Shown here piece after piece: positions 6,166-55,592 of a stretch of DNA of 64,000 nt; within the stretch, counting starts at the first letter, position 1, and each line of letters opens with the position of its first letter. Origin of the DNA: an uncultured Kiritimatiellota bacterium (GTDB lineage: Bacteria > Verrucomicrobiota > Kiritimatiellia > RFP12 > DVOR01). Under the pieces are notes generated by a model. The model was not told where the DNA came from. It ran no database searches and saw only the letters and a list, made by a program, of their open reading frames with translations. The stretch spans positions 129,818 through 193,817 of the forward strand of contig CALXMW010000003.1 in NCBI GenBank assembly GCA_944389585.1. Direction: 5' to 3'. The translations under genes and the position numbers were made by a program.

Positions 6166-6477
6166 CACTAAGACCACTAGGACAACTAAGACCACTGGGA
6201 CGGCTGGGCGGCGCTTCGCCCGTCGCCCTGCAGGGCAGTCTCCGTTTTCCCTTTGTGCCCGTTGCGTCCTTTGTGCCCTTTGTGATTTCCAGAACCCTAG
6301 CCCGTCCTGCGTGCGCCAGCACGCCCTCAATCTGCTCCAAATCCGAGCAATCTGCGGTTCCTTTCGCCGCAAGCCTCCGTTGTGCCCGTTGAGCTTCCCA
6401 GGCTCCGTGTCTCTCTGCGTGTCCTCTGTGCCCGCTGTGGTCTTCCCTGCGCCGTGCAATGTCCTTTGTGATTTCCA
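6166..6477 (+). repeat. Composite intergenic repeat, copy A (modules M1-M2-M3 ... M4)
   Basis: 9-bp ACTAAGACC/ACTGGGAC units at 6166-6210. GCTTCGCCCGTCGCCCTGCAGGGC hairpin plus TCTCCGTTTTCC at 6212-6251. CCTTTGTG...GATTTCCA at 6252-6292. The 73-nt M4 at 6405-6477 is 71/73 identical to 7706-7778. Confidence 0.85.
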
Positions 6478-6510
6478 AGCGCGCCCCGCCCGCAGTGCTC
6501 CCGACTCCAT

Positions 6511-6547
6511 AAAAAAGGCCCCGGCGTGCGCCGGGGCCCTTTTTGTT
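6511..6547. terminator. Bidirectional rho-independent terminator between cysK and the PEP-CTERM gene
   Basis: AAAAAA-GGCCCCGGCG-TG-CGCCGGGGCC-CTTTTTGTTT: a perfect 10-bp GC stem flanked by an A-tract and a T-tract. Confidence 0.75.
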
Positions 6548-6557
6548 TGCCGGTCGC

Positions 6558-7235
6558 TTAGGCCACGCGGCGGCGGAGGGCCACGCCGGCCACGCCGAGG
6601 GCGAGCAGCGCCAGCGCCGTCGGCTCGGGCACGCTGTAGGCCTCGCGCAGGTCGTCGATGGAGGCCGCGACGAAAGCGACCTGGGCGTCCGAGATGGAGA
6701 GCCCCTGGGTCGCCTCTTCCATGTTCACCTTGTTGCCAAGGACGAACTGGTCGAGCGTCCAGCCCGCACTGACCGCGAGGTTCGCGGCGGAGCAGATCTC
6801 CACGCCGTCGACGAAGAACGAGACGTTCATCGAGGCCCCGGAGCGTTCGACGGCCAGCACAAGCTCGTGCTTATCGCCATTCGTCAGCTGCGAGATGGTG
6901 CGGTCGGTTCCTTCAATATGGGTTCCTTCGGTATTCTCGCCGACGCCGAGACGGAGGTTGTTGCCGCTCAGCCAGACGGTCGGGGAGGAACTGTCCGTGT
7001 CCTGGTTGCCGATGCTGAAGAGCGAGTTGCCCTTGGCGCCGGAATCCGCGAAGGAGGCGACGACGCGGATGGCGCCGGCGGCCACCGTGCCTTCCCCGGA
7101 GGCCGCGATGGCGGTGGGGAGGGTGCCGAGCGTGCCGGCGGTGTAGTTGTCGACGGCGGCCCAGTCGATGCTCACGGCGTGGGCGGCGGAGAGGGCGAGC
7201 GCGGCGAAGGCCGCGGTAAGGAGGGTTTTCTTCAT
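6558..7235 (-). CDS. PEP-CTERM-anchored secreted protein with a lectin/LamG-like beta-sandwich body
   Basis: Signal peptide MKKTLLTAAFAALALSAAHA. C-terminus VPEPTALALLALGVAGVALRRRVA is the PEP-CTERM sorting signal. Confidence 0.9.
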   Translation of the reverse strand: MKKTLLTAAFAALALSAAHAVSIDWAAVDNYTAGTLGTLPTAIAASGEGTVAAGAIRVVASFADSGAKGNSLFSIGNQDTDSSSPTVWLSGNNLRLGVGENTEGTHIEGTDRTISQLTNGDKHELVLAVERSGASMNVSFFVDGVEICSAANLAVSAGWTLDQFVLGNKVNMEEATQGLSISDAQVAFVAASIDDLREAYSVPEPTALALLALGVAGVALRRRVA

Positions 7236-7601
7236 GGGTTTGCATTTCTCCTTCCCCGCCCGACAACGTGGCCGAGGGAATCAGGGACGGGGAAGCAGGG
7301 GATCCCCTCGGCTGGTGCGCCACAGACACACGTCCATGCGCGCATGTCCGCGCTTCCGCCGCAGGCCCACGAAAAGACGCACCGCCCTTTCGCACCTCGC
7401 GGAGGCCCTGAGAAGCCTGATAAGGATGCGAGAGGGAAGTGCACCCAACGGTGCGCACTTCGCCGATTCCGCCGCCTTATCAGAAAGTTCTCAGGTTTCC
7501 ACGAGCGACTTGTCGCGCAAAGCGCAAACGATGCCACAGCTCTCCCATGGCGTGCCAATAGAACAACACAATACCCCCGCCCCTTGGCAAGCCCTCTGCC
7601 C

Positions 7602-7778
7602 TACTGGGACCACTGGGACAACTGGGACGGGTGGGAGAGGGCTTCGCCCGTCGCCCCGCAGGGCGGTCTCCGTTTCCCCGTTGTGTCCTTTGTGATTTCC
7701 AACCACCGTGTCCCTCTGCGTGTCCTCTGTGCCCGCTGTGGTCTCCCCTGCGCCGTGCAATGTCCTTTGTGATTTCCA
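7602..7778 (+). repeat. Composite intergenic repeat, copy B (M1-M2-M3-M4, compact)
   Basis: Same module order and orientation as copy A: TACTGGGACCACTGGGACAACTGGGAC, GCTTCGCCCGTCGCCCCGCAGGGCGGTCTCCGTTTCCCC, GTCCTTTGTGATTTCCA, then M4. Confidence 0.85.
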
Positions 7779-7820
7779 CTTCGCCCCGCCGGTGGGGTGG
7801 GGCGGGGGCAGGAAAAGTCC

Positions 7821-7850
7821 TTGCATTTGCCCGGGGGCTTGTGGTATTTT
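7821..7850 (+). promoter_or_regulatory. Sigma-70-type promoter of rplM-rpsI (TTGCAT-N18-TATTTT with TGTGG upstream)
   Basis: -35 TTGCAT at 7821-7826. TTGTGGTATTTT at 7840-7850. Same architecture as the tuf, rpsO and ppdK promoters. Confidence 0.45.
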
Positions 7851-7860
7851 AATGGGACTT

Positions 7861-7925
7861 GCGCATGGGATTGGCGGGACACGACCCCGACTCCCTGTTG
7901 TCCCGCCCCGGCAGAGCCCATGCGC
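7861..7925 (+). promoter_or_regulatory. Structured 5' leader stem-loop of rplM-rpsI
   Basis: Nested perfect helices GCGCATGGG(7861-7869)/CCCATGCGC(7917-7925) and GGCGGGACA(7873-7881)/TGTCCCGCC(7899-7907). It begins a few nt after the predicted TSS. The leader is about 144 nt long. Confidence 0.3.
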
Positions 7926-8000
7926 GTGGGGCGCCCCGGGCCGCCTGACCGTCGATGGCCGGCCGCGCGGCGCCCGAACCGAGAAAGACAGGGTACAGAC

Positions 8001-8435
8001 ATGACCAAGACGACTCTCCCCGAGTTGCCCGACAACGACAGCCGCAAGTGGTACATCATCGACGCGGCGGACAAGCCCCTCGGCCGCCTGGCCGTGCGCG
8101 TGGCGAACGCCCTGCGCGGCAAGGACCGCGCCGATTACGCGCCCTCCGTGGACACGGGGGCCTTCGTGATCGTGGTGAACGCGGCCAAGGTGGCCCTCAC
8201 CGGCAAGAAGAACGAGCAGAAGCAGTACGTGGATTTCACGGGCTGGCGCGGCGGCCTGAGCAAGACCCCCGCCTCCGTCATCCGCGAGCGCAACCCCACG
8301 CGCCTGATCACCGACGCGGTCTGGGGGATGCTGCCGAAGAACAACACCGCCGACATCCGCATGACGCGCCTGAAAGTGTACGCCGGCGCCGAACACCCCC
8401 ACGCGGCCCAGAAGCCTGAGCCGCTGAGCATCTGA
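8001..8435 (+). CDS. rplM: 50S ribosomal protein L13
   Basis: ATG 8001 within ORF 7797..8435. Carries [15 protein letters not shown] and the KVYAG..HPH signature. Confidence 0.95.
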
Positions 8436-8458
8436 CACTGGCGAAAGGATCGCACACC

Positions 8459-8854
8459 ATGGCCATCACCGAACTTTCCAAGGCCACCGGCCGCCGCAAA
8501 ACCGCCGTCGCCCACGTCCGCCTCGTCTCCGGCACGGGCAAGTGGGTCGTCAACGGCGTGGAGGTCGAGCGCTACATCCCCAGCGAATCGCTGCGCGACT
8601 ACATCAACCAGCCCTTCGTGATGACGGAGACCGCCGGCAAGTATGACGTGCTCGTCTCGGCCAAGGGCGGCGGCATCGCCGGCCAGGCCGGCGCGATGCG
8701 CCACGCCCTCTCCCGCGCCCTCTGCGGCCTCGACGCGAACCTGCGCGAGGTGCTCAAGAAGGCCGGCTGCCTGACGCGCGATTCGCGCATGAAAGAGCGC
8801 AAGAAACCCGGCCAGCGCGGCGCCCGCGCCCGCTTCCAGTTCTCCAAGCGCTGA
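8459..8854 (+). CDS. rpsI: 30S ribosomal protein S9
   Basis: [12 protein letters not shown] ... C-terminal [11 protein letters not shown]. Immediately follows rplM. Confidence 0.95.
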
Positions 8855-8862
8855 TTGGACGT

Positions 8863-8937
8863 GCGCGGGCGGACCCGCGCGTTTCCGAAGGGGGCGGGCG
8901 TCTTCGCGCGAGGACGCCGCCCCTCTTTCGCTTTCTT
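8863..8937 (+). terminator. Tandem hairpins / terminator after rpsI
   Basis: GCGCGGG-CGGA-CCCGCGC at 8863-8880. A GGGGCGGGCGTC...GACGCCGCCCC stem at 8891-8923 is followed by TCTTTCGCTTTCTT. Confidence 0.5.
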
Positions 8938-9004
8938 CCCGGGAGTCCCGGGCGGCCTGGCCGCCTAAGCCTGGGCCCAACCCTTTATCGAAGGAGGAAG
9001 CCTC

Positions 9005-21692: not shown

Positions 21693-21715
21693 CGCGCGCG
21701 GGCGGGGCGGGTTTG

Positions 21716-21749
21716 GCCCGGCGGCGTGCGGCCGCCGGGCTTTTCGTTT
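21716..21749 (+). terminator. Terminator after proB
   Basis: GCCCGGCGGC-GTGCG-GCCGCCGGGC (10-bp stem) followed by TTTTCGTTT. Confidence 0.65.
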
Positions 21750-21759
21750 GGCGGGGGCG

Positions 21760-23685
21760 TCAGTAGAGGCCGTAGCGCCTGGAGACGAGCTCCGGGGGGA
21801 GCTGCTTGACGAAGCGCGAGGGGAAGAGGGCGACGGTGCCGCCGCCGGGGGGCTTGCGGTGGGAGGGGACGCAGAGCAGGAGCTCGTCTTTGGCGCGGGT
21901 GAGGGCCACGTAGAAGAGGCGGCGCTCCTCGGGGGCCTGGTCTTCCATGATGGCCTTGGCGGAGGGGAAGAGGTCTTCGTTGCACCAGATGAGGATGACG
22001 ACGGGCCATTCGAGGCCTTTGGCCTGGTGGACGGTGGAGAGGCGGATGGCGGGGCGGTCGGGGGCGGCGCCCTCGGCGTCGACGTTGCTCATGAGGGCGG
22101 CCTCGGAGAGGAAGTCGGCGACGGTCTGGCCTTCGGCGATCTGGGCGGCGAGGGCGGCGACGTCCTGGGCGCGGTCCTCGGCGTTGTCGTAGGTGCGGCG
22201 GAGGTAGGCGGCGTACCAGGCCTCGAGGAAGCGTTTGACGGCGAGGCCGCCGCGGTTTTCGAGGCCTTCGGCGTGGTAGTCGGCGATGAGGGCGTCGAGG
22301 GCGCGCCAATCGTCCTGCGCCTTTTTGGGCAGGAGGGTGAGGAGCTTGAGGCGGGCGGTCTCGTCGGCGGGGTCGAAGAAGCCGCCGAGGCGCTGCCAGA
22401 TGCGCTCGACGGTCTTGGGGCCGACGCCGGGGAGGAGGGCCATGCAGCGGGCGAAGGCGATGGCGTCGACGCCGCCGGAGCAGAGCCTGAGGAAGGCGAC
22501 GACGTCTTTGGCGTGCTGGCTTTCGAAGATGCCTTGGCCGGAGGTGAGGACGTAGTCGACGCGGCGGCGGCGGAGCTCGAGCTCCAGCTCCATGACGTGG
22601 TAGTGGGCGCGGTAGAGGACGGCGATGTCTTGGGGGCGGTAGCCGCTTTGGAGGGCGCGCTGGATGTGGCGGAGCACCATCTGGTTTTGCTCGGCGGCGT
22701 CGTAGAGGAAGGCGACGAGGGGCTTGCGGCCGGCGGGGGGGCGCGTGGGCAGGAGGGTTTTCTGGAATTGCTCGGGGTTGCCGGCGATGGTGGCGTTGGC
22801 GACGGCGAGGATCTCGGGGGCGGAGCGGTAGTTGCGCTCGAGCTTGACGACGCGGCAGCCGGGCCAGCGCTTGGGGAAGTCCATGATGTTGCGGAAGTCC
22901 GCGCCGCGCCAGGAGTAGATGCACTGGAAGTCGTCGCCCACGGCCATGAGGTTGCGGTGGCGCGCGGCGAGGCGGTCGACGAGCTGGGCCTGGATGGTGT
23001 TGGTGTCCTGGTATTCGTCGACGAGGACGTGGCGGAAGCGCGCGGCGTAGAAGTCGGCCACCTGGGGGTGTTCCTCGAAGAGGCGCAGGGTGAGGGTGAG
23101 CAGGTCGTCGAAATCCATCGCGTTGTTCTCGCGCTTGGCCTCGGCGTAGCGCCGGGCCACGGCGAGGAGCTGCGCGGGGTCGACGGGGTCCTCGAAGAGG
23201 GTGCCCTCGAGCAGGGCCTGGAGGTCGGCCTGGGTGTTGGCGGCCTTGCCGATGAGGGCGGCGATGACCTCCTTTTTGGGGAAGCGCTTGGTGTCGGCGA
23301 CGAGTTCCTTGAGGCCGCGGTTGAGGAGCGAGAGGGCGTCGGCGCGGTCGAGGATGGCGAAGTCGCGCCGGTATCCCAGGAGGGGCGCCTCGCGGCGGAG
23401 GATGCGGTGGCAGACGTGGTGGAAGGTGCCCGACCAGAGGGTGGCGATGGCGGGCCCGGCGAGGGCCTGGGCGCGTTCCATCATCTCGCGCGCGGCGCGG
23501 TTGGTGAAGGTGAGCAGGAGGATGCCCTCGGGGGCCTCGCCCTGCTCGAGGAGCCAGGCGACGCGGTGGGTGAGGGTGCGCGTCTTGCCGGTGCCGGCGG
23601 CGGCGAGGACGAGCGTGGGCCCTTCGCCGGCGGTCACCGCCGCCAGCTGCTCCGGGTTCAGCAAGCTTTCCCAATCCGTCGCCAT
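21760..23685 (-). CDS. UvrD/Rep/PcrA-family ATP-dependent DNA helicase
   Basis: ATG 23685 gives MATDWESLLNPEQLAAV...VLAAAGTGKTRTL (Walker A). Also DEYQDTN, YRS, and TVHQAKGLEW...LFYVALTRAK. Confidence 0.92.
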   Translation of the reverse strand: MATDWESLLNPEQLAAVTAGEGPTLVLAAAGTGKTRTLTHRVAWLLEQGEAPEGILLLTFTNRAAREMMERAQALAGPAIATLWSGTFHHVCHRILRREAPLLGYRRDFAILDRADALSLLNRGLKELVADTKRFPKKEVIAALIGKAANTQADLQALLEGTLFEDPVDPAQLLAVARRYAEAKRENNAMDFDDLLTLTLRLFEEHPQVADFYAARFRHVLVDEYQDTNTIQAQLVDRLAARHRNLMAVGDDFQCIYSWRGADFRNIMDFPKRWPGCRVVKLERNYRSAPEILAVANATIAGNPEQFQKTLLPTRPPAGRKPLVAFLYDAAEQNQMVLRHIQRALQSGYRPQDIAVLYRAHYHVMELELELRRRRVDYVLTSGQGIFESQHAKDVVAFLRLCSGGVDAIAFARCMALLPGVGPKTVERIWQRLGGFFDPADETARLKLLTLLPKKAQDDWRALDALIADYHAEGLENRGGLAVKRFLEAWYAAYLRRTYDNAEDRAQDVAALAAQIAEGQTVADFLSEAALMSNVDAEGAAPDRPAIRLSTVHQAKGLEWPVVILIWCNEDLFPSAKAIMEDQAPEERRLFYVALTRAKDELLLCVPSHRKPPGGGTVALFPSRFVKQLPPELVSRRYGLY

Positions 23686-23687: not shown

Positions 23688-23813
23688 TCACCACAAGGAG
23701 CACAAGGGGCCACAAAGGGCGCAAGGATTTTTAAGGGGGGAAGGAGAGGTGGCAATCATCTCTGTTGGGTTCGCCACAAGGGTCGCAAGGGGCCACAAAG
23801 GGCGCAAAGGGTT
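23688..23813 (-). repeat. Two direct copies of an M3-like module (copy C) in the helicase 5' UTR / downstream of the GxxExxY gene
   Basis: 23688-23737 and 23770-23813 both read TTCRCCACAAGG..CAAGGGGCCACAAAGGGCGCAARG. The reverse complement (CCTTTGCGCCCTTTGTGG...) resembles module M3. Confidence 0.75.
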
Positions 23814-24218
23814 CTAGAGCACGAAGTGTTTGTAGCCATCGATGAGGCGCGGGTAGCCGAAGTTGAGCAGGACGCCATAGCGTTTGTTGGCAAGTTTGAG
23901 GTAGGTGAGCAGCTGTTGTTCGTAGACGGGCTTGTTGGCTTCCGTGGATTTGAGTTCCACCACGAGCGTGTCGTTGACCAACAAGTCCATCCGAAAGGCG
24001 ACGTCAATCACGTGTCCTTCGTCGACCACGGTGACGGGGACTTCCGTCTTGACATCCAGCCCGTGTTTGTCGCGCAATCGATGCAGCAGTGCGACGCGGT
24101 AGAAGTTTTCCAATAACATCGGGCCATAGTTTTGGTGGAGCGAGATGGCCTCGTGGAGCACGATCCCATTGAGCTCGTAGTCTTCGTTGCGTTGGGCAGG
24201 CGTGATTGTCGGCGGCAT
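23814..24218 (-). CDS. GxxExxY-family protein (PD-(D/E)XK nuclease-like fold)
   Basis: 134 aa. GPMLLENFYRVAL (GxxExxY block), DVAFRMDLLVNDTLVVELKS (D...ExK core) and GVLLNFG, as in the family often found in 23S rRNA intervening sequences. Confidence 0.85.
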   Translation of the reverse strand: MPPTITPAQRNEDYELNGIVLHEAISLHQNYGPMLLENFYRVALLHRLRDKHGLDVKTEVPVTVVDEGHVIDVAFRMDLLVNDTLVVELKSTEANKPVYEQQLLTYLKLANKRYGVLLNFGYPRLIDGYKHFVL

Positions 24219-24227: not shown

Positions 24228-24273
24228 GGTTCCGTTGCGCCCGTTGTGGTCCTTTGCGTTCTTTGTGGTGGCC
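24228..24273 (+). repeat. M3-like module (copy D), inverted relative to 23770-23813
   Basis: GGTTCCGTTGCGCCCGTTGTGGTCCTTTGCGTTCTTTGTGGTGGCC aligns with the reverse complement of 23770-23813. It fills the whole gap between the GxxExxY start and the next gene's stop. Confidence 0.7.
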
Positions 24274-25774: not shown

Positions 25775-27724
25775 ATGATGAAACGCGCCCTCGCCCTCCT
25801 TGTCCTGGCCTTTGCGGCCGCCCTCCCCGCCGCCGAATGGACGCTCGCGGGTTTCCCGACCCACTGGGATCAATCCGGCACCTACAACGCCTACACGCCG
25901 GGCAAGCGTAAGTGCGGCTGCATCGCCGTCGCCGGCGCGGCCGTGCTCCAGTTCTACAACGCGACAAAAGACCCTGGGACGCAGACGGTGGAGTGCTCAA
26001 TCGACAGCGAGCCGATCTGGCTCACCACCCGCCCCGGCGCGTATGACTGGGACAACGCGGATGACGCCCTCTACGGCCGCGTGGCCTACAACCTGGGCGT
26101 GCAGGTGGGGATGAACTACGGCGGCCAGGAAAGCTCCGCCGCCACCGAACGCCTGGCCGGCGTGCTCGAAAGCTATGGCCTCACCTGCACCTACGCGCGG
26201 CGGATGGCCACGGGCGGCTTCACCCAGGCCGAGCTCGAGGCGCACCTCTACGTGCCGCTCCGCCTGGGCTGGCCCGTGATCCTGGGTATCCGCGGCGGCA
26301 CCTCGCACGCCGTCGTGGCCACCGGCGTGCGGCCCGCGGCGGGCTCGGAAGCCGTGGAGACGCGCCTCTTCGCGGGCTTCGGCGGCAAGGGCGACGGCTG
26401 GTATGCCCTGCCGGAGGCCACCATCAACGACATCCCGTTCGACACCGTCACCGACATCCTCATCGTGCGCACCCAGGCCGAGGGCGACCGCTGCTGGCAG
26501 GCCGTCTACGGCGCCGTCTCCGCCCCCGACGGCACGCCCGCCCCCGACGGCACGCCCGCCCCCGACGGCACGCCCGTCACGCTCACCTGCGGCGGCGAGA
26601 CCCACACCGCGACGACGGCCGGCGGCGCCTACGCCCTCGCCTTCCAAGCCCCAATCAACACCCCCGTGCAAGTCTCCTGCGGCGGGCAATTGCGCGTGGT
26701 TGCTTTCATGAGCGCGGAGGAATTGCCGCGGAGGCTGGATTTCGTCGAGGGGAACGCGACGCCGGACGGGGCGTATTTGATAGGCCCGGATGTCACGGCG
26801 TTGGATTTGGAGCGGTATCCGGACTTCCGCTTCCATCTTTATCAAGTGCAGGGGGAAACGCTGGTCGAGCTTTCCCCGGTGACGTGGTCGGCCTCGCTTG
26901 AGAATGTCCAAGGCGCCAGCGAGTTTGCCTACGGCATCTCGGCCTCCATCGATTCCTCCGGGCGCGTCTTCTGTTCGGACAGCCGGTTCCGCTCCGCCAC
27001 GCTCACCGTCAAAGGCCAATACGGCAGAAACCCCGCGGTCAGCAAGACGATGACGCTGTATCCGCGCATGACGCTCGTGGTGAACAGTTGGGTGCCCTCC
27101 GTGCGTCAGGTCTGGCCTGGCGAGGTCGTCGAAGCCCGGGACATCCGCCTCAACGTCACCACGGGCGGGGAGACGACCCAGACGGACGACCTTTCCGAAG
27201 CGGTGTTTCGCCTCAATGGCAACAGATGGAGCGCCCAAGGGACGGCGCTTGCCATCCCTGCCGGGACGGAGGTCTCGCGCCAACAGCAATTGCAACTGTC
27301 GCTCAGCGCCTGGAGAGCGGGCGATTCGGAAGACCCCTTTGCCGCCAAGGCCGCCACGATAGACCTTATGCCTTCCGCCTCGACCCTCGGCGACGACTTC
27401 GACAATATCCCCGATGGCTGGCTCAAGGCGCGGGTCGGGGCGACGGATGAGACTCTCGAGAAGGTGGCCCGCGCCGACAGCGACGGGGATGGGTACGCGA
27501 ATTGGGAGGAGTGGGTGGCGGGGACGGACCCGAAGGACGCGGGGAGCACGTTGCGGGTGACGGGGCTGGAGGTGGGCGCGGACGGCGCGGCGCGGGTGGA
27601 GTGGGCGCCGCGGGCGCCGGGGCGGAAGGCCGTCGTCGTGGGGGCGGAGGCGCTTGGGGGGCCGTGGCGGGAAGACCCCGGCGCGGGGGCGCGCTTCTTC
27701 CGCGTCAGGGTTTCGCTGGAGTGA
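25775..27724 (+). CDS. Secreted peptidase C10 (streptopain-like cysteine protease) with Pro-rich repeat, beta-sandwich modules and a C-terminal TSP3-like/FFRV domain
   Basis: Signal peptide MMKRALALLVLAFAAALPAA. Catalytic-Cys block KCGCIAVAGAAVLQFY, His block GGTSHAVVATG, and GDGWYAL. C-terminus DSDGDGYANWEEWVAGTDPKD...ARFFRVRVSLE. Confidence 0.8.
   Translation: MMKRALALLVLAFAAALPAAEWTLAGFPTHWDQSGTYNAYTPGKRKCGCIAVAGAAVLQFYNATKDPGTQTVECSIDSEPIWLTTRPGAYDWDNADDALYGRVAYNLGVQVGMNYGGQESSAATERLAGVLESYGLTCTYARRMATGGFTQAELEAHLYVPLRLGWPVILGIRGGTSHAVVATGVRPAAGSEAVETRLFAGFGGKGDGWYALPEATINDIPFDTVTDILIVRTQAEGDRCWQAVYGAVSAPDGTPAPDGTPAPDGTPVTLTCGGETHTATTAGGAYALAFQAPINTPVQVSCGGQLRVVAFMSAEELPRRLDFVEGNATPDGAYLIGPDVTALDLERYPDFRFHLYQVQGETLVELSPVTWSASLENVQGASEFAYGISASIDSSGRVFCSDSRFRSATLTVKGQYGRNPAVSKTMTLYPRMTLVVNSWVPSVRQVWPGEVVEARDIRLNVTTGGETTQTDDLSEAVFRLNGNRWSAQGTALAIPAGTEVSRQQQLQLSLSAWRAGDSEDPFAAKAATIDLMPSASTLGDDFDNIPDGWLKARVGATDETLEKVARADSDGDGYANWEEWVAGTDPKDAGSTLRVTGLEVGADGAARVEWAPRAPGRKAVVVGAEALGGPWREDPGAGARFFRVRVSLE
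26522..26575 (+). repeat. Perfect 18-bp x 3 in-frame tandem repeat (APDGTP x3) inside the C10 peptidase gene
   Basis: GCCCCCGACGGCACGCCC is repeated three times without mismatch. Confidence 0.95.
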
Positions 27725-31273: not shown

Positions 31274-31308
31274 CCCAAAAAGCCCCGCACCCGCGGGGCT
31301 TTTTTTTT
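31274..31308 (+). terminator. Rho-independent terminator after ppdK; 35 nt identical to the one after rplL
   Basis: CCCAAAAAGCCCCGCACCCGCGGGGCTTTTTTTTT: an 8-bp stem, ACCC loop and T9. An exact copy lies at 39653-39687. Confidence 0.85.
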
Positions 31309-31646
31309 GGAGAACGGAGAGCGCCCCTGCGGGGCGACCGGCGCACGCATCCGCTGCGCGGGCACCCGCAAAGGCGCAACGTGAAGCAAAGGACGCAAAG
31401 GGGAAAGACGGAAAGCGAATGCCCCGCGGTGCGGAGAAAGGGCAGATGGTGGGCGGGCAGGCAAGAGCGGGGATGGCGGGCAGGAGCAGGGTGGTGGGCG
31501 GCGTCTCAGTGGTCTTAGTGGTCCCAGTGGTCCCAGAGCGTGGCATCCTTGGCGGCGGCGTGCTAGGACAACTGGGACTGCTGGGACTGCTGGGACAACT
31601 GGGTCGGGCTCCGCCCGTCGCCCCGCAGGGGCGTTCTCCGTTCTCT
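31309..31646. repeat. Palindromic composite repeat, copy E (MITE-like, about 338 bp)
   Basis: Terminal inverted repeats 31309-31343 and 31612-31646 match 32/35 (GGAGAACGGAGAGCGCCCCTGCGGGGCGACCGGCG). Inside are inverted 9-bp GGTCCCAGT / ACTGGGAC arrays (31506-31538 and 31563-31603) and an M3-like stretch (31380-31416). Confidence 0.8.
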
Positions 31647-34550: not shown

Positions 34551-34668
34551 TGGCCGCGGAAGGCAGCCGCGGAAGGCAGCCGTGGAAGGTAGCCGTGGAA
34601 GGTAGCCGTGGAAGGTAGCCGTGGAAGGTAGCCGTGGAAGGTAGCCGTGGAAGGTAGCCGTGGAAGGT
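34551..34668 (+). repeat. 13-bp tandem array, about 9.5 copies (GGAAGGTAGCCGT)
   Basis: Units start at 34558, 34571, 34584 ... 34649. The first two have C for T (GGAAGGCAGCCGC/T) and the last six are identical. It starts 1 nt after the HAD stop. The unit length is not a multiple of 3. Confidence 0.95.
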
Positions 34669-34669
34669 T

Positions 34670-34720
34670 CGCCCTTCGGGCTCACACGCCCTTCGGGCTC
34701 ACACGCCCTTCGGGCTCACG
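34670..34720 (+). repeat. 17-bp tandem array x3 (CGCCCTTCGGGCTCACA), each unit a GCCC-TTC-GGGC mini-hairpin
   Basis: Copies at 34670-34686, 34687-34703 and 34704-34720, with one mismatch in the last. Abuts the 13-mer array. Confidence 0.95.
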
Positions 34721-39652: not shown

Positions 39653-39687
39653 CCCAAAAAGCCCCGCACCCGCGGGGCTTTTTTTTT
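39653..39687 (+). terminator. Rho-independent terminator after rplL (exact copy of 31274-31308)
   Basis: CCCAAAAAGCCCCGCACCCGCGGGGCTTTTTTTTT. Confidence 0.85.
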
Positions 39688-39691
39688 GTAT

Positions 39692-40018
39692 AGACCACAG
39701 AGAACACGGAGGACACACAGAGACGCACAGAGAATTGGAAATCACAAAGGACACAAAGGGCACAAAGGGGAGAACGGAAAACGGAGAACGGGAAACGGAG
39801 CATGCGGCGGCGAAGCCGCAAGCCTTCCCCGGCTACAAAGAGCGCCCCTGACGGGGCGCCGGGTCAGGCACGTCGCAGACGTGCCGCGGGTACAGGGGGA
39901 GCTTCCCCCTGCCGGGGTTCAAGGGGCGGCGCCCCTTGAACCTTCCATCACCTTCCCTTTTCTCGTTTTCCCTTCCCCTCCGTGTCCCTTTGTGTGTCCT
40001 CTGTGCTCTCTGTGGTCT
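39692..40018. repeat. Palindromic composite repeat, copy F (MITE-like, about 327 bp)
   Basis: Imperfect TIRs at 39692-39732 and 39978-40018 (34/41; M4-type AGACCACAGAGAACAC...). The left arm also carries inverted M3 (TGGAAATCACAAAGGACACAAAGGGCACAAAGG) and GGAGAACGGAAAACGGAGAACGG. The centre (39842-39940) holds four consecutive perfect hairpins. Confidence 0.8.
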
Positions 40019-40069
40019 CCCCTGCGCCGTGTCTTTTTTGCCAAAAGTGGGGACAGGGGCGGTGGGTTA

Positions 40070-40078
40070 TGCTATACT
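40070..40078 (+). promoter_or_regulatory. Extended -10 (TGCTATACT) upstream of the giant membrane-TPR gene
   Basis: -10 at 40073-40078. GAGAAGGAG RBS at 40092-40100 and ATG at 40110. Confidence 0.4.
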
Positions 40079-51663: not shown

Positions 51664-51671
51664 CGTCCCTT

Positions 51672-51680
51672 ATCATACCA
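51672..51680 (-). promoter_or_regulatory. Extended -10 (TGGTATGAT) 9 nt before the phosphoesterase ATG
   Basis: The reverse complement of 51672-51680 is TGGTATGAT. This predicts a 1-2 nt leader for the six-gene coupled operon. Confidence 0.4.
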
Positions 51681-51774
51681 AAACCAACCCCCTGCCGCAT
51701 ACCCCCGCCGCATGCCCCGGGGGACGGGAAAGGCCGCCTTTTGGGGGCGGCCTTTTGGGGCGTTGGGCGGCGGC

Positions 51775-52845
51775 TCAGCGGCGGGCGCGGGCGAGGGCCT
51801 CGGCCTCGTCGAGCGCGGCCTTGGCGTTGCCCACGTGCTCGGCGGCGGCGCGGTGGCTGGCCAGCTGGCCTTCGGCGCCGGGGAGGACGCTGAGCATGGA
51901 GACGGTGCAGAGCTCGCGCTCCTTGTCGGAAAGCACGCCGCGGGCGAAGAGATCGCAGAAGAGGTGCTCCTTCAGGAACTGCTCGGCGCCGGGGGCGAAG
52001 CGCTGCCACTCGGCCTCGGGGGCGTCGGGGTCGGAGCCGAAGAGCGCGGCGCGTTTCTCGCGGCCGATACGCTCGCGGTCGGCGCCCGCGGGGAGGGCCT
52101 TGGGCGCGGGGCCCTCGGGGTCGGCCTTCCCGGCGGCCTGGCGCTCGGCGAGGACTTGGGCGAAGGCGGCGTTGGCGTTGAGGCAGCGGGGGAAGCCGAG
52201 GTAGGCGTAGAGCTGGAGGAGGGCCTCTTTGATTTCGTTCACCGTGAGCCCGGCGTCGAGGCCTTCGGCGCAGGCGCGCTTGAGGCCGGGGAGGTCGCCG
52301 GCGGCGGCGCGGCCGGAGATGCGGGCGAGGGCGGCCTCGCGCGGGGTGAGGTGTTTGGGCGCGGCGGCGCGGGGCTGTGCGGCGGCGTAATCGGCGTCGC
52401 TGACGGGCTCCAGCCAGGTGTTCGTGTTGGTCTCTGGGTGGCACTCGACGGAGAGGTGGGCGAACCAGCGGTCGGCGGTCGCGCCGTGCCAGTGGTCGGT
52501 GTCCGGCGGGATCTCGACGACGTCGCCGGGCTTGAGGTGGCGGGCGGGCTTGCCGCGCTCCTGGTAGAGGCCCTCGCCGGCGACGCAGAGGAGGATTTGG
52601 CCGCCGGTGTGGCGGTGCCAGTTGTTGCGGCAGCCGGGCTCGAAGGTGACGTTGGCGATGGGCACGCCGGTCCGGTCGGCGTGCTCGGTGAGGCGCGCGA
52701 GGTAACTCTGGCCCGTGAAGTATTGGGCGTAGGCGTCGTTCGGCGCGCCGGTGGGAAAGGCGGGGGTGTAGTCTGGCATGGGCGTGGCTCCTTGGAGCGC
52801 GGGGACGAGGAGGGCGGCGGCGAGGGCGAACGCGGCGGTCTTCAT
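51775..52845 (-). CDS. Signal-peptide-bearing cupin domain fused to a carboxymuconolactone decarboxylase (AhpD-like) domain
   Basis: ATG 52845 (ATGA overlap). MKTAAFALAAALLVPALQGA. Cupin block NNWHRHTGGQILLCVAGEG...PGDVVEIPPDTDHWHG. The C-terminal half is CMD-like (ELCTVSMLS). Confidence 0.8.
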   Translation of the reverse strand: MKTAAFALAAALLVPALQGATPMPDYTPAFPTGAPNDAYAQYFTGQSYLARLTEHADRTGVPIANVTFEPGCRNNWHRHTGGQILLCVAGEGLYQERGKPARHLKPGDVVEIPPDTDHWHGATADRWFAHLSVECHPETNTNTWLEPVSDADYAAAQPRAAAPKHLTPREAALARISGRAAAGDLPGLKRACAEGLDAGLTVNEIKEALLQLYAYLGFPRCLNANAAFAQVLAERQAAGKADPEGPAPKALPAGADRERIGREKRAALFGSDPDAPEAEWQRFAPGAEQFLKEHLFCDLFARGVLSDKERELCTVSMLSVLPGAEGQLASHRAAAEHVGNAKAALDEAEALARARR

Positions 52846-54206
52846 GGCGTGGGCTCCTGTGGTTGGGGTTTGATGGGCATGGCAGGGTTGAGCGGCGTGG
52901 TGTCGACCAGCCTCAGGCTGGTGACCCACGGCAACGTGCCCTGCTTGTACCTCTGGAAATGCGGGGTTTGCAGGTGGCTGCGGTAGGCGGTCTCGGAGGC
53001 GTAGATCTCAAGGATGGTGAAGCGCGTGGGGCGTTCCTTCTCCTGCACGGCGTAGAGCGAGAGCACCCCCGGCTCGACGCGCACGGAGGTGGCGGTGCCC
53101 TCGTGCAGCAACGCCTTGTATTCCTCCAGATGCGCGGGGTCCACCTCGATGAGCGAGAGGCGCACGAGCGGCGCGGGCGCCTCCGCGGCCGCCTCCTTCG
53201 GCGCGGGTGCGAGGTCCCCGCCCAACAGCCGCCGGGCGTTCCCCCCCAACACGTCCCCCATCCACAGCCGGGTGGCGGGGTCGGCGGCGAGGAGCCCGCG
53301 CAGGCGCGCCAGGTGCGCCGCCGGGTCCTGATAGGGGTAGTCCGAGCCGAAGAGCCACCGCGCGGGCGGGATCACCTCCGCCAACGCGCGGAGCTGGCCG
53401 GCCTCCGTGACGCCCGCGAGGTCGGCCCACAGGCAGGCGAGGTTCCCCTCCCAATCGATGGCCTCCGCGCGGCCCTGCGCGGCCTGGGCGGCGTTGAGCG
53501 CCCGGAGCCTCGGCACGGCCAACGGCAGGAAGGCGCCCGCGTGCGGCACCACCACGCGCAGGCCGGGCCGTTTGGCCAGGACGTTGCGGGAAAGGAGCGT
53601 GACGAGCGCGCGGGTGGTCTCCGCCTGATATTCGTAGAACGGCAGGGGCGTCACGGCCGCGGTGGCGGCGCTGACGGGGGTGGGCCGCTGCGGGTGGAGC
53701 ACGACGAGCGCCTTGCGCGCCGCCAGGAAATCCATCAGCGGATCCAACGCCGGGTCGCCCAGATACTGCCCCGCGACGTTCGTGGAGAGGCGGACGCCGT
53801 CCGCGCCCAAGGCGTCCAAGGCGTAGGCGGCCTCCTCCAACGCGGCCGCGACGTCCGGGAGCGGCAACGTGGCGCAGAAGCGGAAGCGCCCCGGGAAACG
53901 CGCCTTGAGCGCGGCGGCGGCCTCGTTGGCGGCGCGGCAGGCGGCCTTGGCCTCCACGGCGTCGCCGAACCACGGCTGCGGCACGGCCAGGGTGAGGAGC
54001 GCGCAGGAGACGCCCGCCCCGTCCATCGCCGCCACGTGGGCCGCCGCGTCCCACCGCGGCAGGGGGAAGCCCTCGGCGCGCTCGGCGCCGTGACGGGCCA
54101 GCAGGGCGCGGAAAGCCTCGGGGATGAGGTGCGCGTGCACGTCCACCGCGCCGGCGGCGAGGCCAAGCGCGGAGACGGCGGCGGCGAGGGTGAGCGTGCG
54201 GCGCAT
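52842..54206 (-). CDS. Signal-peptide-bearing amidohydrolase-2 (ACMSD-like) domain fused to an ABM (antibiotic-biosynthesis-monooxygenase-like) domain
   Basis: MRRTLTLAAAVSALGLAAGAVDVHAHLIPE (HxH metal motif), HPQRP, and FGSDYPY. C-terminal 95 aa LIEVDPAHLEEYKALL...YASETAYRSHLQTPHFQRYK is an ABM fold signature. Confidence 0.8.
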   Translation of the reverse strand: MRRTLTLAAAVSALGLAAGAVDVHAHLIPEAFRALLARHGAERAEGFPLPRWDAAAHVAAMDGAGVSCALLTLAVPQPWFGDAVEAKAACRAANEAAAALKARFPGRFRFCATLPLPDVAAALEEAAYALDALGADGVRLSTNVAGQYLGDPALDPLMDFLAARKALVVLHPQRPTPVSAATAAVTPLPFYEYQAETTRALVTLLSRNVLAKRPGLRVVVPHAGAFLPLAVPRLRALNAAQAAQGRAEAIDWEGNLACLWADLAGVTEAGQLRALAEVIPPARWLFGSDYPYQDPAAHLARLRGLLAADPATRLWMGDVLGGNARRLLGGDLAPAPKEAAAEAPAPLVRLSLIEVDPAHLEEYKALLHEGTATSVRVEPGVLSLYAVQEKERPTRFTILEIYASETAYRSHLQTPHFQRYKQGTLPWVTSLRLVDTTPLNPAMPIKPQPQEPTP

Positions 54207-54212
54207 GGGGCA

Positions 54213-55388
54213 TCAGCGGTAGGACTTTTTGTAGATGTCCACGACGTCGCCGTCGGAAAGCGGCGCGGGGTCGCAGGCGAAGAGGGCGCCGAGGGTGTCG
54301 CGGGCGTTCTTGGCCATGGCGGGGAACTCGTCTGGCACGATGCCGTAGTCGCTCATCTTGAGGGCGTCCACGCCGCAGGCGCGCTGGAGTGCGGCGAGGG
54401 CGTCGAGGAAGTCCTCGGGCCGGGTGGCGGTGGGGCGGCCGAGGGCCTGCGCCAGGCGGACGAAGCGGCCGGGGCAGGCGCCTTTGGCGATGAGCGCGCC
54501 GTAATAGGCCAGGGAGACCATGATGAGGCCCGCGCCGTGGGGGAGGGCGTGGTGGAAGGCGCTGAGGGCGTGCTCGATGGCGTGCTCGCTGGTGAGCGGG
54601 CCGGTGGCCATGACGAAGCCGCCGAGGGTGTTGCCCAGGGCTATCTGCGTGCGGGCCCCGAGGTCGCCGGGGTGGGTGACGCAGCGGGCGAGGTTCGCGC
54701 CGATGCGCTCGACGCCGGCCAGCGCGTAGAGCTCGCTCATCAGCGTGCGGGGGCCGGCAAGGTAGCCTTCGACGCAGTGGAAGAGCGCGTCGAAGCCTTG
54801 GTAGGCGGTGAGGTGGGCGGGCACGGAGGCCATCAGCGTGGGGTCGACCACGGAGAGGGCGGGGAATTGGCGGTGATCCATGAAGCCGGGCTTCTCACGG
54901 CGGTCGTCGTCGGAGATGACCGCGCCGTCGTCGATCTCGCTGCCGGTGCCGGCGGTGGTGGTGACGCAGACGAGCGGGAGCGGGTCGTTGGGATAGCGCT
55001 TGTTGCCGCCGGTGGCGGTGAAGGCATAGTCCCACAGGTCGCCGGGGTTGCGGGCCATCACGCCAATCATCTTCGCGGCGTCCATCACCGAGCCTCCGCC
55101 GAGGGCGACGATGAAGTCGCACCCCTCGGCCTTGGCCAGCGCGGCGCCTTCCATGACGGTGGGGCGCAACGGGTTGGCCTCCACCTTGGGGAACGCGACG
55201 ACGGCGGCGCCGGCCTTGGCGAGCTGGGCCAGGAGGCGGTCATAGGCGCCGGTGGCCTTGGCGGATTTGCCGCCGGTCATGACGAGGAGGGCCTTCTTGC
55301 CGGGGAGCGTCTCCTCGCCGAGCTTGTCGAGCGCGCCGGGGCCGAAGAGCAGGCGCGTGGGAATGTCGTAGACGAAACTGTCGTTCAT
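54213..55388 (-). CDS. Iron-containing (group III) alcohol dehydrogenase
   Basis: GGGSVMDAAK, the TTAGTGSE block and the H..EHALSAFHHALPHGAG metal site. 391 aa. Confidence 0.9.
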   Translation of the reverse strand: MNDSFVYDIPTRLLFGPGALDKLGEETLPGKKALLVMTGGKSAKATGAYDRLLAQLAKAGAAVVAFPKVEANPLRPTVMEGAALAKAEGCDFIVALGGGSVMDAAKMIGVMARNPGDLWDYAFTATGGNKRYPNDPLPLVCVTTTAGTGSEIDDGAVISDDDRREKPGFMDHRQFPALSVVDPTLMASVPAHLTAYQGFDALFHCVEGYLAGPRTLMSELYALAGVERIGANLARCVTHPGDLGARTQIALGNTLGGFVMATGPLTSEHAIEHALSAFHHALPHGAGLIMVSLAYYGALIAKGACPGRFVRLAQALGRPTATRPEDFLDALAALQRACGVDALKMSDYGIVPDEFPAMAKNARDTLGALFACDPAPLSDGDVVDIYKKSYR

Positions 55389-55412
55389 GGCGTCAACCTT
55401 TGTTGGGAATTA

Positions 55413-55592
55413 GGAGAACGGAAAACGGGGAACGGAGAACGGAGCGCGCGGCAAGCGCGCGACGGGCTGGCCAAAAGGAAGCTATGAAACACCTTTCGAG
55501 TTTCTTTGTGGTTCTTCGGGCCCTGCAAACATTCCACAGGTGCCCATCTGCCACTCCGTCGCCCCGCAGGGGCGCCCCGTTTTCCGTTCTCC
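55413..55592. repeat. MITE-like palindromic repeat, copy G (180 bp, perfect 18-bp TIRs)
   Basis: GGAGAACGGAAAACGGGG (55413-55430) is the exact reverse complement of 55575-55592. Each arm has a GC hairpin (GCGCGC-GGCAA-GCGCGC; CGCCCC-GCA-GGGGCG). It sits between the ISF stop and the ADH start on the same strand. Confidence 0.85.

What the first reader, a model, noticed from the sequence alone, without database searches (positions are those of the whole stretch)
6166..55592. Modular intergenic repeat family at seven loci (about one per 9 kb), built from degenerate 9-bp units and GC hairpins
Seven loci are assembled from the same few modules in varying order and orientation: 6166-6477, 7602-7778, 23688-23813, 24228-24273, 31309-31646, 39692-40018 and 55413-55592.
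- M1: 9-bp tandem units of the ACTGGGAC type.
- M2: GCTTCGCCCGTCGCCCCGCAGGGGCG hairpin followed by TCTCCGTTTTCC.
- M3: CCTTTGTGCCCTTTGTGATTTCCA.
- M4: CCGTGTCCCTCTGCGTGTCCTCTGTGCCCGCTGTGGTCTCCCCTGCGCCGTG.
M1, M3 and M4 resolve into degenerate 9-mers ending TGGG, TGTG or TGCG. The GC hairpin changes sequence between copies while keeping its pairing (GCCCTGCAGGGC; CGCCCCGCAGGGGCG; GCGCCCCTGACGGGGCGC; GCGCGCGGCAAGCGCGC). That pattern argues for selection on structure.
All copies are intergenic and visibly less GC-rich than the flanking genes. I cannot assign them to any described REP/BIME/MITE/IS family. No transposase is present in the window.
Basis: partly seen in the sequence, partly recalled or inferred. 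Interest (0 to 1): 0.72.

Follow-up and report, generated by a model that had tools for sequence, protein, structure and literature searches.

The report
Mosaic intergenic foldback repeat family
The seven loci are real copies of one hairpin-forming intergenic repeat family in an uncultured Kiritimatiellia-like bacterium. Two of its building blocks are the same 9-base arrays that bracket small GxxExxY nuclease-like genes in several bacterial phyla, which points to an undescribed selfish gene cassette.

Summary
The 7- and 9-nt unit arrays occur 9-10 times each against 0.05-0.18 expected by chance, and only in low-GC intergenic gaps. An eighth locus (34553-34719) belongs to the family. Two related species carry diverged copies at about one locus per 5-8 kb.

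The "varying order" claim needs correcting. Most copies are colinear truncations of one composite half-element (M1, M2, M3, optional M5, M4, M3). Loci D, E and F are inverted pairs of halves that fold as long foldbacks (z -7.6 to -10.8).

The hairpin "covariation" is not evidence for RNA structure. Each species has its own dominant hairpin sequence, which is concerted evolution.

There is no Rfam hit and no transposase. However, loci 23688-23813 and 24228-24273 are the inverted brackets of a GxxExxY gene (TIGR04256, Cas4/lambda-exonuclease-like fold). All 12 GxxExxY genes examined have 9-mer arrays directly beside them, and in 10 of them CACAGAGG/CACAAAGG-type arrays lie in inverted orientation on both sides. 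The 12 come from at least five named phyla. "Empty" brackets are abundant in Bacteroides and Gemmatirosa and in many viral contigs.

Best reading: these are non-coding, MITE/BIME-like relatives of a widespread, undescribed cassette. The mobilising mechanism is inferred, not shown.

The parts
6167..6477 (+). Locus A, the longest 'half-element'. M1 9-mers about 6167-6210; M2 hairpin GCCCTGCAGGGC 6225-6236; M2 7-mer tail 6239-6250; M3 9-mers 6250-6291; M5 6292-6376 (hairpin at about 6309-6324); M3-like 6377-6401; M4 6403-6456; terminal M3 6457-6477. It lies between the stop of a PALP (CysK-like) gene at 6155 and a terminator-like hairpin at 6517-6538.
   Evidence: It does not fold better than shuffles (z -0.65).
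7603..7778 (+). Locus B. Same half-element as A but lacking M5 (M1, M2, M3, M4, M3). 97% identical to A over 73 nt. Lies upstream of rplM-rpsI.
   Evidence: (D14, D16)
23688..23813 (-). Two M3-type arrays (CACAAGGAG / CACAAAGGG units on the + strand) immediately 3' of the GxxExxY gene. This is one bracket of the cassette. It abuts the UvrD-like start codon at 23685.
23814..24218 (-). GxxExxY protein gene, 134 aa (TIGR04256 / PF13366 PDDEXK_3). The intergenic gap that holds it has GC 0.56.
24228..24273 (+). M3-type array (CCGTTGCGC CCGTTGTGG TCCTTTGCG TTCTTTGTGGTGG), the inverted partner of 23688-23813. This is the other bracket of the GxxExxY cassette.
31274..31308 (+). Intrinsic-terminator module CCCAAAAAGCCCCGCACCCGCGGGGCTTTTTTTTT after ppdK. 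Identical to the one after rplL. Directly abuts locus D.
   Evidence: sequence. The scan tool reported the rplL copy but not this one.
31309..31646 (.). Locus D, a foldback. Order: M2 (reverse complement), M3-like (reverse complement), unique GC-rich core, M1 (reverse complement), M1, M2. The outer arms pair over about 30 bp.
   Evidence: z -7.95. Strain L025 carries extra blocks of 23 bp and about 84 bp here.
34553..34719 (+). GCCGTGGAAGGTA x9 then CGCCCTTCGGGCTCACA x3. This is a tandem expansion of module M6, which is embedded in the same repeat family in L016. It lies between a HAD gene and the tRNA-Thr promoter region.
   Evidence: (D3)
39653..39688 (+). Second copy of the identical terminator module, after rplL.
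39692..40031 (.). Locus E, a foldback. M4 (rc) 39692-39733; M3 (rc) 39736-39769; 7-mer tail (rc) 39769-39800; four GC hairpins 39800-39940; degenerate tail 39950-39976; M4 39977-40031. A promoter-like site follows at 40050-40078.
   Evidence: I21; z -10.8
55413..55592 (.). Locus F, a foldback with a perfect 18-nt terminal inverted repeat GGAGAACGGAAAACGGGG. Each arm has a different GC hairpin (GCGCGCGGCAAGCGCGC and CGCCCCGCAGGGGCG). Lies between the Fe-ADH and FMN-reductase genes.
   Evidence: (z -7.6)

Best explanation
The loci are copies and fragments of one lineage-specific family of composite, foldback-forming intergenic repeats. It is MITE/BIME-like and belongs to an uncultured, probably Kiritimatiellia, bacterium.

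The unit is a half-element of about 180-310 nt. It is built from short tandem arrays (7- and 9-nt units, almost A-free on one strand) interleaved with GC-only hairpins. Two halves in inverted orientation give the foldbacks D, E and F.

The M3 and M4 arrays are the same kind of sequence as the inverted 3 x 9-nt arrays that bracket GxxExxY (PD-(D/E)XK) genes across phyla. The window holds one such cassette.

Most likely the family consists of non-coding ('empty' or solo-end) relatives of that cassette. They multiplied in this lineage and are kept similar and reshuffled by DNA-level processes: recombination or gene conversion between copies, and replication slippage of the units. They persist in the spacers between a terminator and the next promoter, where they do little harm.

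Shown: the family, its anatomy, its presence in relatives, the cassette link, strain-level indels, and species-specific homogenisation.

Inferred: that the arrays are recognition sites for the GxxExxY nuclease-like protein or another conserved factor, and that this drives copying.
For: 1. The repeats are far above chance and only intergenic.
2. The copies are colinear with locus A. D, E and F fold as foldbacks with z -7.6 to -10.8.
3. The family is in related species at syntenic and non-syntenic loci: L016, four intergenic regions in 20 kb; L018, two long regions plus a cassette.
4. A solo M3 in the window is 30/30 identical to the left end of the L018 cassette. The two GxxExxY proteins are only about 65-70% identical.
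5. All 12 GxxExxY genes examined have 9-mer arrays directly beside them. In 10, CACAGAGG/CACAAAGG-type arrays lie in inverted orientation on both sides: window, L016, L018, L028, L032, Acidoferrales L034, L035, Bacteroides L039, Gemmatirosa L040, Bernardetia L254. Sphingomonas L038 has a related array upstream only. Prevotella L255 has direct ACAAATCGN arrays. Several of these genes are wedged between operon partners such as gatA|gatB, fabD|fabG and the methylmalonyl-CoA mutase subunits.
6. Empty brackets are common. There are six elements in 70 kb of B. finegoldii, one of them with the gene. Gemmatirosa has 32-38 places per megaplasmid. More than 120 IMG/VR contigs match.
7. Hairpin type is species-specific. 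Strain L025 differs at locus D by a 23-bp tandem duplication and an about 84-bp block bounded by direct M2 copies.
8. The GxxExxY protein keeps the invariant catalytic E..K and a near-invariant D. It models with pLDDT 92, closest to Cas4 and lambda exonuclease.
Against: - No target-site duplication or clean empty-versus-filled site was found in this lineage. Strains 1-2% apart have the loci in the same places, so there is no sign of ongoing transposition.
- In 1.04 Mb of viral contigs with 134 arrays there is no GxxExxY ORF. Only 20 arrays have an inverted partner. About 1-kb bracketed segments there carry other small genes. The arrays are therefore not exclusive to GxxExxY.
- In L034 and L040 the gene lies outside the array ends, in the order right end, gene, left end. 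That does not fit a simple transposon with terminal inverted repeats.
- M1 and the M2 hairpin were not linked to any gene or to other phyla.
- The rest of the source genome could not be scanned.
Confidence: 0.5

Rival explanations
1. The loci are cis-acting RNA elements. They would be transcribed as 3' or 5' UTR segments whose hairpins and foldbacks stabilise or terminate transcripts, or insulate neighbouring genes. The cassette brackets would form a stem, for example an RNase III substrate, that excises the selfish ORF from host operon transcripts, as in 23S rRNA intervening sequences.
For: - Locus A lies between a stop codon and the first terminator-like hairpin, so it should be in a 3' UTR.
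- The foldbacks are very stable.
- Both gene arrangements (left end, gene, right end; and right end, gene, left end) would enclose the GxxExxY ORF in a stem.
- Cassettes sit inside operons.
- Arrays in phage contigs lie at or just upstream of start codons.
Against: - Loci D and E start right after strong terminators and end before promoter-like sites, so they are probably poorly transcribed.
- The 9-mer sequence itself, not only the pairing, is conserved from Bacteroides to Kiritimatiellia. A plain stem would not need that.
- There is no Rfam family.
- Intergenic SNP density between strains is as high as or higher than coding density.
- Hairpin types are homogenised per species rather than covarying.
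Confidence: 0.17
2. The arrays are binding-site arrays (iteron- or operator-like) for a host DNA-binding protein. They would act as insulators, nucleoid or topological elements between transcription units, as proposed for BIMEs that bind IHF and gyrase.
For: - There are three to five tandem units of fixed period.
- Polarity relative to flanking units is consistent. The T-poor strand follows terminators and the A-poor strand precedes promoters.
- The position between terminator and promoter is regular.
- An unrelated prophage family uses inverted CTGGGACA 9-mer triplets around a spacer next to a gene start.
Against: - No candidate binding protein was identified.
- The unit period (7 or 9 bp) is off the helical repeat.
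- Sequence drifts at about the neutral rate between strains.
- The same arrays appear inside apparent coding starts in phage contigs.
Confidence: 0.13
3. The loci are classical REP/BIME elements mobilised in trans by a RAYT (Y1 transposase) encoded elsewhere in the genome. On this view the GxxExxY association is incidental.
For: - GC-rich palindromes occur in inverted doublets inside mosaic elements.
- A Y1_Tnp (PF01797) gene lies about 3 kb from a GxxExxY gene in other Kiritimatiellia MAGs.
Against: - No RAYT was found in the window genes scanned or in the fetched relatives of this lineage.
- The hairpins lack a shared GTAG-like 5' tetranucleotide.
- The bulk of each element is tandem arrays, not palindromes.
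- The flank of the L032 Y1_Tnp gene shows no M2-like hairpin.
Confidence: 0.08

Closest known systems
BIMEs / REPINs of Enterobacteria and Pseudomonas (REP palindromes with RAYT)
   Same: Intergenic. Mosaics of a few motifs. GC-rich imperfect palindromes in inverted pairs. Copy sequence homogenised within a genome. A small nuclease-type gene sits between inverted copies of the repeat, as a RAYT does between REPs.
   Different: Most of each element here is 7- and 9-nt tandem arrays. There is no GTAG-type motif. The bracketed gene is a PD-(D/E)XK (GxxExxY) protein, not a Y1 transposase. The array sequence is conserved across phyla, whereas REPs are species-specific.
MITEs and foldback elements (e.g. 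Correia/NEMIS, Nezha, RUP)
   Same: 180-340 nt. Terminal inverted repeats. Non-coding. Located between genes. The relation to a longer gene-carrying version resembles internal-deletion derivatives.
   Different: No target-site duplication was found. No known transposase is involved. The terminal repeats are themselves tandem 9-mers. Many copies are single halves.
Rickettsia palindromic elements (RPE)
   Same: Palindromic repeats that tolerate insertion in reading frames. The arrays here have a 3-codon period. On the arrays' A-poor strand A is 3.3% and T 39%, so stop codons are rare there in any frame on either strand. In phage contigs they read in frame as M[KR][LI]TTEDTE....
   Different: In the window all copies are intergenic. 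The sequence is unrelated. In-frame use is seen only in viral contigs.
Cyanobacterial STRR heptamer repeats and Neisseria NIMEs (comparison from general knowledge, not tested here)
   Same: Short tandem 7-nt units in intergenic regions (STRR). Mosaic blocks bounded by short inverted repeats (NIME).
   Different: Different unit sequences and organisms. No link to a bracketed gene has been described for those.
23S rRNA intervening sequences carrying a small ORF (comparison from general knowledge)
   Same: A small selfish ORF enclosed by inverted repeats and inserted in essential transcription units.
   Different: The ORF family there is the four-helix-bundle protein. Whether those carry the same 9-mer arrays was not tested here.

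Membership tests
REP/BIME (RAYT-associated) | Imperfect palindrome of 20-40 nt with a conserved 5' tetranucleotide (GTAG-like) | tested here: not met
   The hairpins are GC palindromes of 12-19 nt with differing flanks. No shared tetranucleotide is present.
REP/BIME (RAYT-associated) | A cognate Y1 transposase (RAYT) flanked by the repeats | tested here: inconclusive
   None in the window genes scanned or in the loci fetched from this lineage. The rest of the genome could not be searched. A Y1_Tnp gene occurs in other Kiritimatiellia MAGs.
MITE | Terminal inverted repeats | tested here: met
   D, E and F have 18-40 nt inverted ends and fold as foldbacks. A and B are single halves.
MITE | Target-site duplication, and filled versus empty sites among close relatives | tested here: not met
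   No duplicated flank at any element. Strains 1-2% apart have the same sites. The only contrasts found are the about 84-bp block in L025, bounded by direct M2 copies, and a genus-level presence/absence at gmd-fcl.
MITE | A related autonomous element that encodes the transposase | tested here: inconclusive
   A gene-carrying version exists (the GxxExxY cassette). Its protein is not a known transposase, and mobility was not shown.
Described ncRNA family (Rfam 15) | A match to a curated covariance model | tested here: not met
   The window gives only tRNAs. The cross-phylum elements give only spurious sub-threshold miRNA matches.
GxxExxY protein (TIGR04256 / PF13366 PDDEXK_3), for the gene at 23814-24218 | Score above the curated cut-off, and conserved G..E..Y and D...E.K residues | tested here: met
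   96.3 bits against a cut-off of 35. G32, E37, Y40, E88 and K90 are invariant and D78 is near-invariant in 37 homologues. The fold is closest to Cas4 and lambda exonuclease.
CACAGAGG-type 9-mer array brackets (defined here) | Two to four tandem 9-mers C[AG]C[AG][AG][AG]G[AG]N, nearly T-free, ending in (T/A)(C/T)ACC/ATC, often with an inverted partner | tested here: met
   M3 and M4 match. There is 30/30 identity between window 39740-39769 and the L018 cassette end. M1, the M2 hairpin and M6 do not belong to this class.

The most novel reading that the evidence does not exclude
GxxExxY genes together with their inverted 3 x 9-nt arrays would form a previously undescribed, cross-phylum class of selfish cassette. 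Members of this very large PD-(D/E)XK family have no known function. In this reading the Cas4/lambda-exonuclease-like protein recognises the arrays or the hairpin they form. It then drives copying into intergenic and intra-operon sites. Empty hairpin derivatives seed large repeat families such as the one in this window, those in Bacteroides and Gemmatirosa, and copies in phage genomes. The near absence of A on one strand of the arrays, and so of T on the other, together with the 3-codon period, would be an adaptation that keeps insertions nearly free of stop codons in all six frames.
Probability: 0.3. Interest if true: 0.82.

Novelty: new variant of a known kind. Interest (0 to 1): 0.62.

Why it matters
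Mosaic intergenic repeats are known, so the window family alone would be a lineage-specific curiosity.

What is new is the link to GxxExxY proteins. The family has no assigned function; the 2012 PD-(D/E)XK survey lists PF13366 as 'Unknown' with multiple transfers (PMC3424549). Every member examined carries 9-mer arrays directly beside it, and in 10 of 12 these are conserved CACAGAGG/CACAAAGG-type arrays in inverted orientation on both sides. The genes are often wedged between partners of essential operons. The same arrays are scattered as empty hairpins through Bacteroides, Gemmatimonadota, cyanobacterial plasmids and viral contigs.

This gives a concrete, testable hypothesis for what these proteins act on. 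It also offers a possible origin for abundant unexplained hairpin repeats in well-studied gut bacteria.

Tried and rejected
1. I translated a stop-free frame through locus B to look for spurious ORFs over other copies in the protein database. Nothing was found.
2. The M4 pattern against 185,579 species-representative genomes gave only two chance coding hits. The source species and the family are absent from that collection.
3. The M2 pattern against JGI metagenomes gave 11 loci. Nine are an unrelated multi-copy element of a low-GC organism that shares the 20 specified bases by construction. Two are coding chance hits.
4. Two look-ups of window-edge proteins failed because my start codons differed from the called genes.
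5. The FopS sRNAs of Bacteroides were considered as the identity of the Bacteroides hairpins and rejected. They are a 5' seed plus a terminator, and the loci gave no Rfam hit.
6. The M1 array against plasmids gave only chance-level hits. The M1 pattern in viral contigs gave 79 contigs. The five I inspected (L175, L176, L182, L201, L232) carry inverted CTGGGACA arrays in similar contexts and probably belong to one prophage family. The rest were not inspected and may include collagen-like coding repeats. This is not evidence of homology.
7. A run-length test for A-free or T-free stretches does not discriminate in a 70% GC genome: 339 runs against 287 in shuffles. Only the base composition of the arrays is informative.
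8. A column-wise covariation count on the M2 hairpins was abandoned. MAFFT cannot place the two hairpin types in one register.
9. Pfam on cargo ORFs of about 1-kb bracketed segments in viral contigs gave nothing informative.
10. Literature searches by family accession, family name and array sequence found no description of these cassettes.

Full report
**Source and setting.** The window has about 70% GC. Positions 13814-34218 are 100% identical to an ENA metagenome scaffold (ERZ28613587, scaffold_54, 171 kb). Other assemblies hold strains that are 98-99.98% identical. The closest named homologues of one window protein are from Kiritimatiellia MAGs, so the organism is probably an uncultured member of that class. 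This is an inference. Crude gene calling by GC3, together with the gene calls attached to the fetched contigs, shows that all listed loci lie in intergenic gaps of GC 0.56-0.67.

| Pattern | Module | Matches | Expected |
|---|---|---|---|
| CRCRRRGRNCRCRRRGR | M3/M4 | 10 | 0.18 |
| CTGGGACNNCTRRGAC | M1 | 9 | 0.05 |
| GGARAACGGRRAAC | M2 tail | 9 | 0.13 |

Every match falls in a listed locus.

- Locus E extends to 40031.
- A fifth module, M5, lies at 6292-6376. It has CAATCTG-type units plus the hairpin GCGTGC..GCACGC.
- An identical 36-nt terminator directly abuts loci D and E.
- An eighth locus lies at 34553-34719. Its 13-mer x9 and 17-mer x3 are an expansion of a module that sits inside the same repeats in a related species.

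**Anatomy.** Aligning every locus to the longest one (A) shows that B equals A without M5. The arms of E are colinear with A in the order M2 tail, M3, M4. The family is therefore better described as truncations of one composite half-element (M1, M2 hairpin, 7-mer tail, M3, optional M5, M4, terminal M3) than as freely shuffled modules. Locus D is a partial exception.

D, E and F are inverted pairs of halves. As single strands they fold into long foldbacks, with z -7.95, -10.8 and -7.6 against shuffles. A is a lone half and does not fold better than shuffles (z -0.65).

On one strand the arrays contain 3.3% A and 39% T. The window background is about 15% for each.

There is a polarity rule, seen by eye. 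The T-poor strand (GGAGAACGG.., CACAAAGG..) follows terminators. The A-poor strand precedes the next promoter-like region.

**Beyond the window.** The M4 pattern is absent from 185,579 species-representative genomes except for two chance coding hits. The M2 pattern in JGI metagenomes recovered only an unrelated low-GC element.

Contigs reached through homologues of one window protein showed the family in two related species. L016 has a syntenic region with four repeat-filled intergenic gaps in 20 kb. L018-L021 have a different genomic region with two long gaps plus a cassette. Density is about one locus per 5-8 kb in all three species.

**Hairpin 'covariation'.** The hairpin next to the 7-mer tail occurs in a few types. 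The dominant type differs by species:
- Window: GCCCCGCAGGGGC.
- L016: GCGCGCTTGCCGCGCGC.
- L018: GCGCGGGCCACGCCCGCGC, six copies.

The window type and the L016 type differ by two C:G to G:C flips, an extra pair and a different loop. Two window copies carry single-base changes that shorten or break the stem. MAFFT could not put the types in one register.

This pattern is concerted evolution of a repeat family, by spread or gene conversion of one variant per genome. It is not many independent compensatory substitutions, so it does not argue for selection on an RNA structure. No Rfam family matches.

**Dynamics.** Strains 1-2% apart keep the loci at the same sites. Intergenic SNP density is as high as or higher than coding density. 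Strain L025 differs at locus D in two ways:
- a 23-bp tandem duplication;
- an about 84-bp block (M3-like array, spacer hairpin, M2) bounded by direct M2 copies.

This is the signature of recombination or slippage between modules, not of a clean transposon insertion. The near-perfect 13-mer x9 array also shows recent slippage.

**The key lead.** Loci 23688-23813 and 24228-24273 are the two sides of a 134-aa gene. That gene is a GxxExxY protein (TIGR04256, 96 bits against a cut-off of 35; PF13366). The two sides are inverted M3-type arrays.

The same bracket surrounds:
- the ortholog in L016;
- a 70%-identical paralog at a different genomic site in L018-L021;
- the ortholog of that paralog in L028 (AATCACAACGGACACAACGGGCACAAAGGG ... 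CCCTTTGTGTCCTTTGTGCCCTTTGTGATTG).

A solo M3 in locus E is 30/30 identical to the left end of the L018 cassette.

More distant GxxExxY genes are bracketed by M4-like CACAGAGG arrays:

| Locus | Organism and position |
|---|---|
| L032 | another Kiritimatiellia MAG |
| L034 | Acidoferrales, between methylmalonyl-CoA mutase subunits |
| L035 | between gatA and gatB |
| L039 | Bacteroides finegoldii, after radA |
| L040 | Gemmatirosa |
| L254 | Bernardetia |

Two cases differ:
- Sphingomonas (L038, between fabD and fabG) has a related array on one side only.
- Prevotella nigrescens (L255) has direct ACAAATCGN arrays plus a hairpin, which resembles M5.

In L034 and L040 the gene lies between a right end and a left end rather than inside one element.

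**Empty brackets elsewhere.** A 37-nt Bacteroides array finds 38 plasmid-database records. These include 16 Bacteroides records, 32-38 places in each Gemmatirosa megaplasmid, and several cyanobacterial plasmids.

In 70 kb of B. finegoldii there are six bracketed elements of 61-460 nt. Only one holds the gene. Examples sit between gmd and fcl, dnaN and an exonuclease gene, and lptB and der.

At gmd-fcl, B. ovatus and B. finegoldii both carry the 72-nt hairpin, apparently flipped relative to each other. Phocaeicola massiliensis has no element and the two genes abut.

The 18-nt core pattern hits more than 120 IMG/VR contigs. Among those viral contigs:
- there is no GxxExxY ORF in 1.04 Mb;
- only 20 of 134 arrays have an inverted partner;
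- 24 of 117 arrays have a start codon 10 or 13 nt upstream in frame, reading M[KR][LI]TTEDTE...;
- several about 1-kb bracketed segments carry other small genes with no informative Pfam hit.

The arrays are thus a broadly distributed module that is not exclusive to GxxExxY.

**The protein.** Thirty-seven homologues keep G32, E37, Y40, E88 and K90 invariant and D78 nearly so. This is a PD-(D/E)XK catalytic set by general knowledge of the superfamily. There is no sequence relative in the PDB. The AlphaFold model (pLDDT 91.9) is closest to Cas4 SSO0001 and lambda-type exonucleases, with TM about 0.46-0.56. The 2012 PD-(D/E)XK survey lists PF13366 as function unknown with multiple transfers (PMC3424549). 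Searches by family name, accession and array sequence found no paper describing the cassettes.

**Interpretation.** The best-supported reading is that the window loci are non-coding relatives (empty or single-end copies) of this cassette type. They would have been elaborated in this lineage with further arrays (M1, 7-mers, M5, M6) and species-specific GC hairpins. They would be maintained by recombination, gene conversion and slippage in the spacers between transcription units.

It is inferred, not shown, that the arrays are recognition sites for the GxxExxY protein. For this inference:
- conservation of the unit sequence across phyla;
- the RAYT-like arrangement of a nuclease gene between inverted repeats.

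Against it:
- the arrays occur without the gene in phage contigs;
- other cargo occurs between arrays;
- the right end, gene, left end arrangement occurs;
- no target-site duplications or fresh insertions were found.

RNA-level roles (stem formation, UTR effects) and protein-binding arrays remain live rivals. A RAYT-driven REP system is less likely but cannot be excluded without the whole genome.

One attractive idea is untested. Because one strand of the arrays is nearly free of A and the other nearly free of T, stop codons are rare in all six frames. With the 3-codon period, this would let the arrays sit in or next to reading frames harmlessly.

**Verdict.** The finding is real and was undersold in one respect (the cassette link) and oversold in another (hairpin covariation, free module order). 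As a repeat family it is a new variant of a known kind. The cross-phylum GxxExxY bracket is the part worth following up.

Noticed in passing
window 31274-31308 and 39653-39688: An identical 36-nt stretch, CCCAAAAAGCCCCGCACCCGCGGGGCTTTTTTTTTG, follows two unrelated genes (ppdK and rplL). Each copy directly abuts a repeat locus, so the terminator itself behaves like a repeat module.
   Followed up: partly
window 26520-26576: A perfect 18-nt x3.2 tandem repeat (CCGCCCCCGACGGCACGC) lies inside a 649-aa gene of unknown function. Strains L023 and L027 lack one unit, so its length is polymorphic in frame.
   Followed up: partly
window 21693-21759: The short GC-rich spacer (GC 0.84) between two convergent genes carries a cluster of 1-3 nt indels in strains L023 and L027. 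This is the densest indel spot in the compared 20 kb.
   Followed up: no
L006-L012, L014, L015 (JGI metagenomes, mostly Ga0049107): A multi-copy element of a 41-50% GC organism contains GAGTCGCCCCGCAGGGGCGACTCCGTTGACCGATTTC. In one frame it reads ..KFHVNRCRGVGMQPPNHQKFPVFGKESPRRGDSVDRFPKFLG. It is repeated about every 170 nt and is unrelated to the window family apart from the searched pattern.
   Followed up: no
L032 3700-3840: Five spaced copies of the palindrome TTTTCCACNNTATGGAAAA lie upstream of the GxxExxY cassette in a Kiritimatiellia MAG. They look like operator sites.
   Followed up: no
L030-L033 1-945: A 340-aa Y1_Tnp (PF01797) gene lies about 3 kb from the GxxExxY gene in other Kiritimatiellia MAGs. 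It is a possible RAYT-type enzyme in this class.
   Followed up: no
L175 3400-3535, L176 2035-2180, L182, L201, L232 (IMG/VR): A prophage family has three GTCCCAG 9-mers, a spacer of about 90 nt rich in CACG/CGCG, and three inverted CTGGGACA 9-mers next to a gene start, plus extra single boxes. This is an iteron- or operator-like layout that uses the same 7-nt core as M1.
   Followed up: no
L062, L068, L073, L085, L093, L131 and others (IMG/VR): CCACAGAGGAC arrays lie in frame right after a start codon and Shine-Dalgarno-like site in unrelated phage genes. They give N-termini such as MKITTEDTEDTE followed by what looks like the native start. L131 has five TED units.
   Followed up: partly
L041 1500-1575 versus L168 (gmd-fcl spacer): The 72-nt hairpin element at the same site in B. 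ovatus and B. finegoldii has its arm unit order swapped. This looks like inversion of the element between the two species. Phocaeicola massiliensis has no element there.
   Followed up: partly
window 6558-7235 with 6167-6477 and 7603-7778: A PEP-CTERM protein gene on the minus strand, with its upstream region, is flanked by two direct copies (90-97% identical) of the same half-element. This could be a duplication of the repeat around an inserted gene.
   Followed up: no
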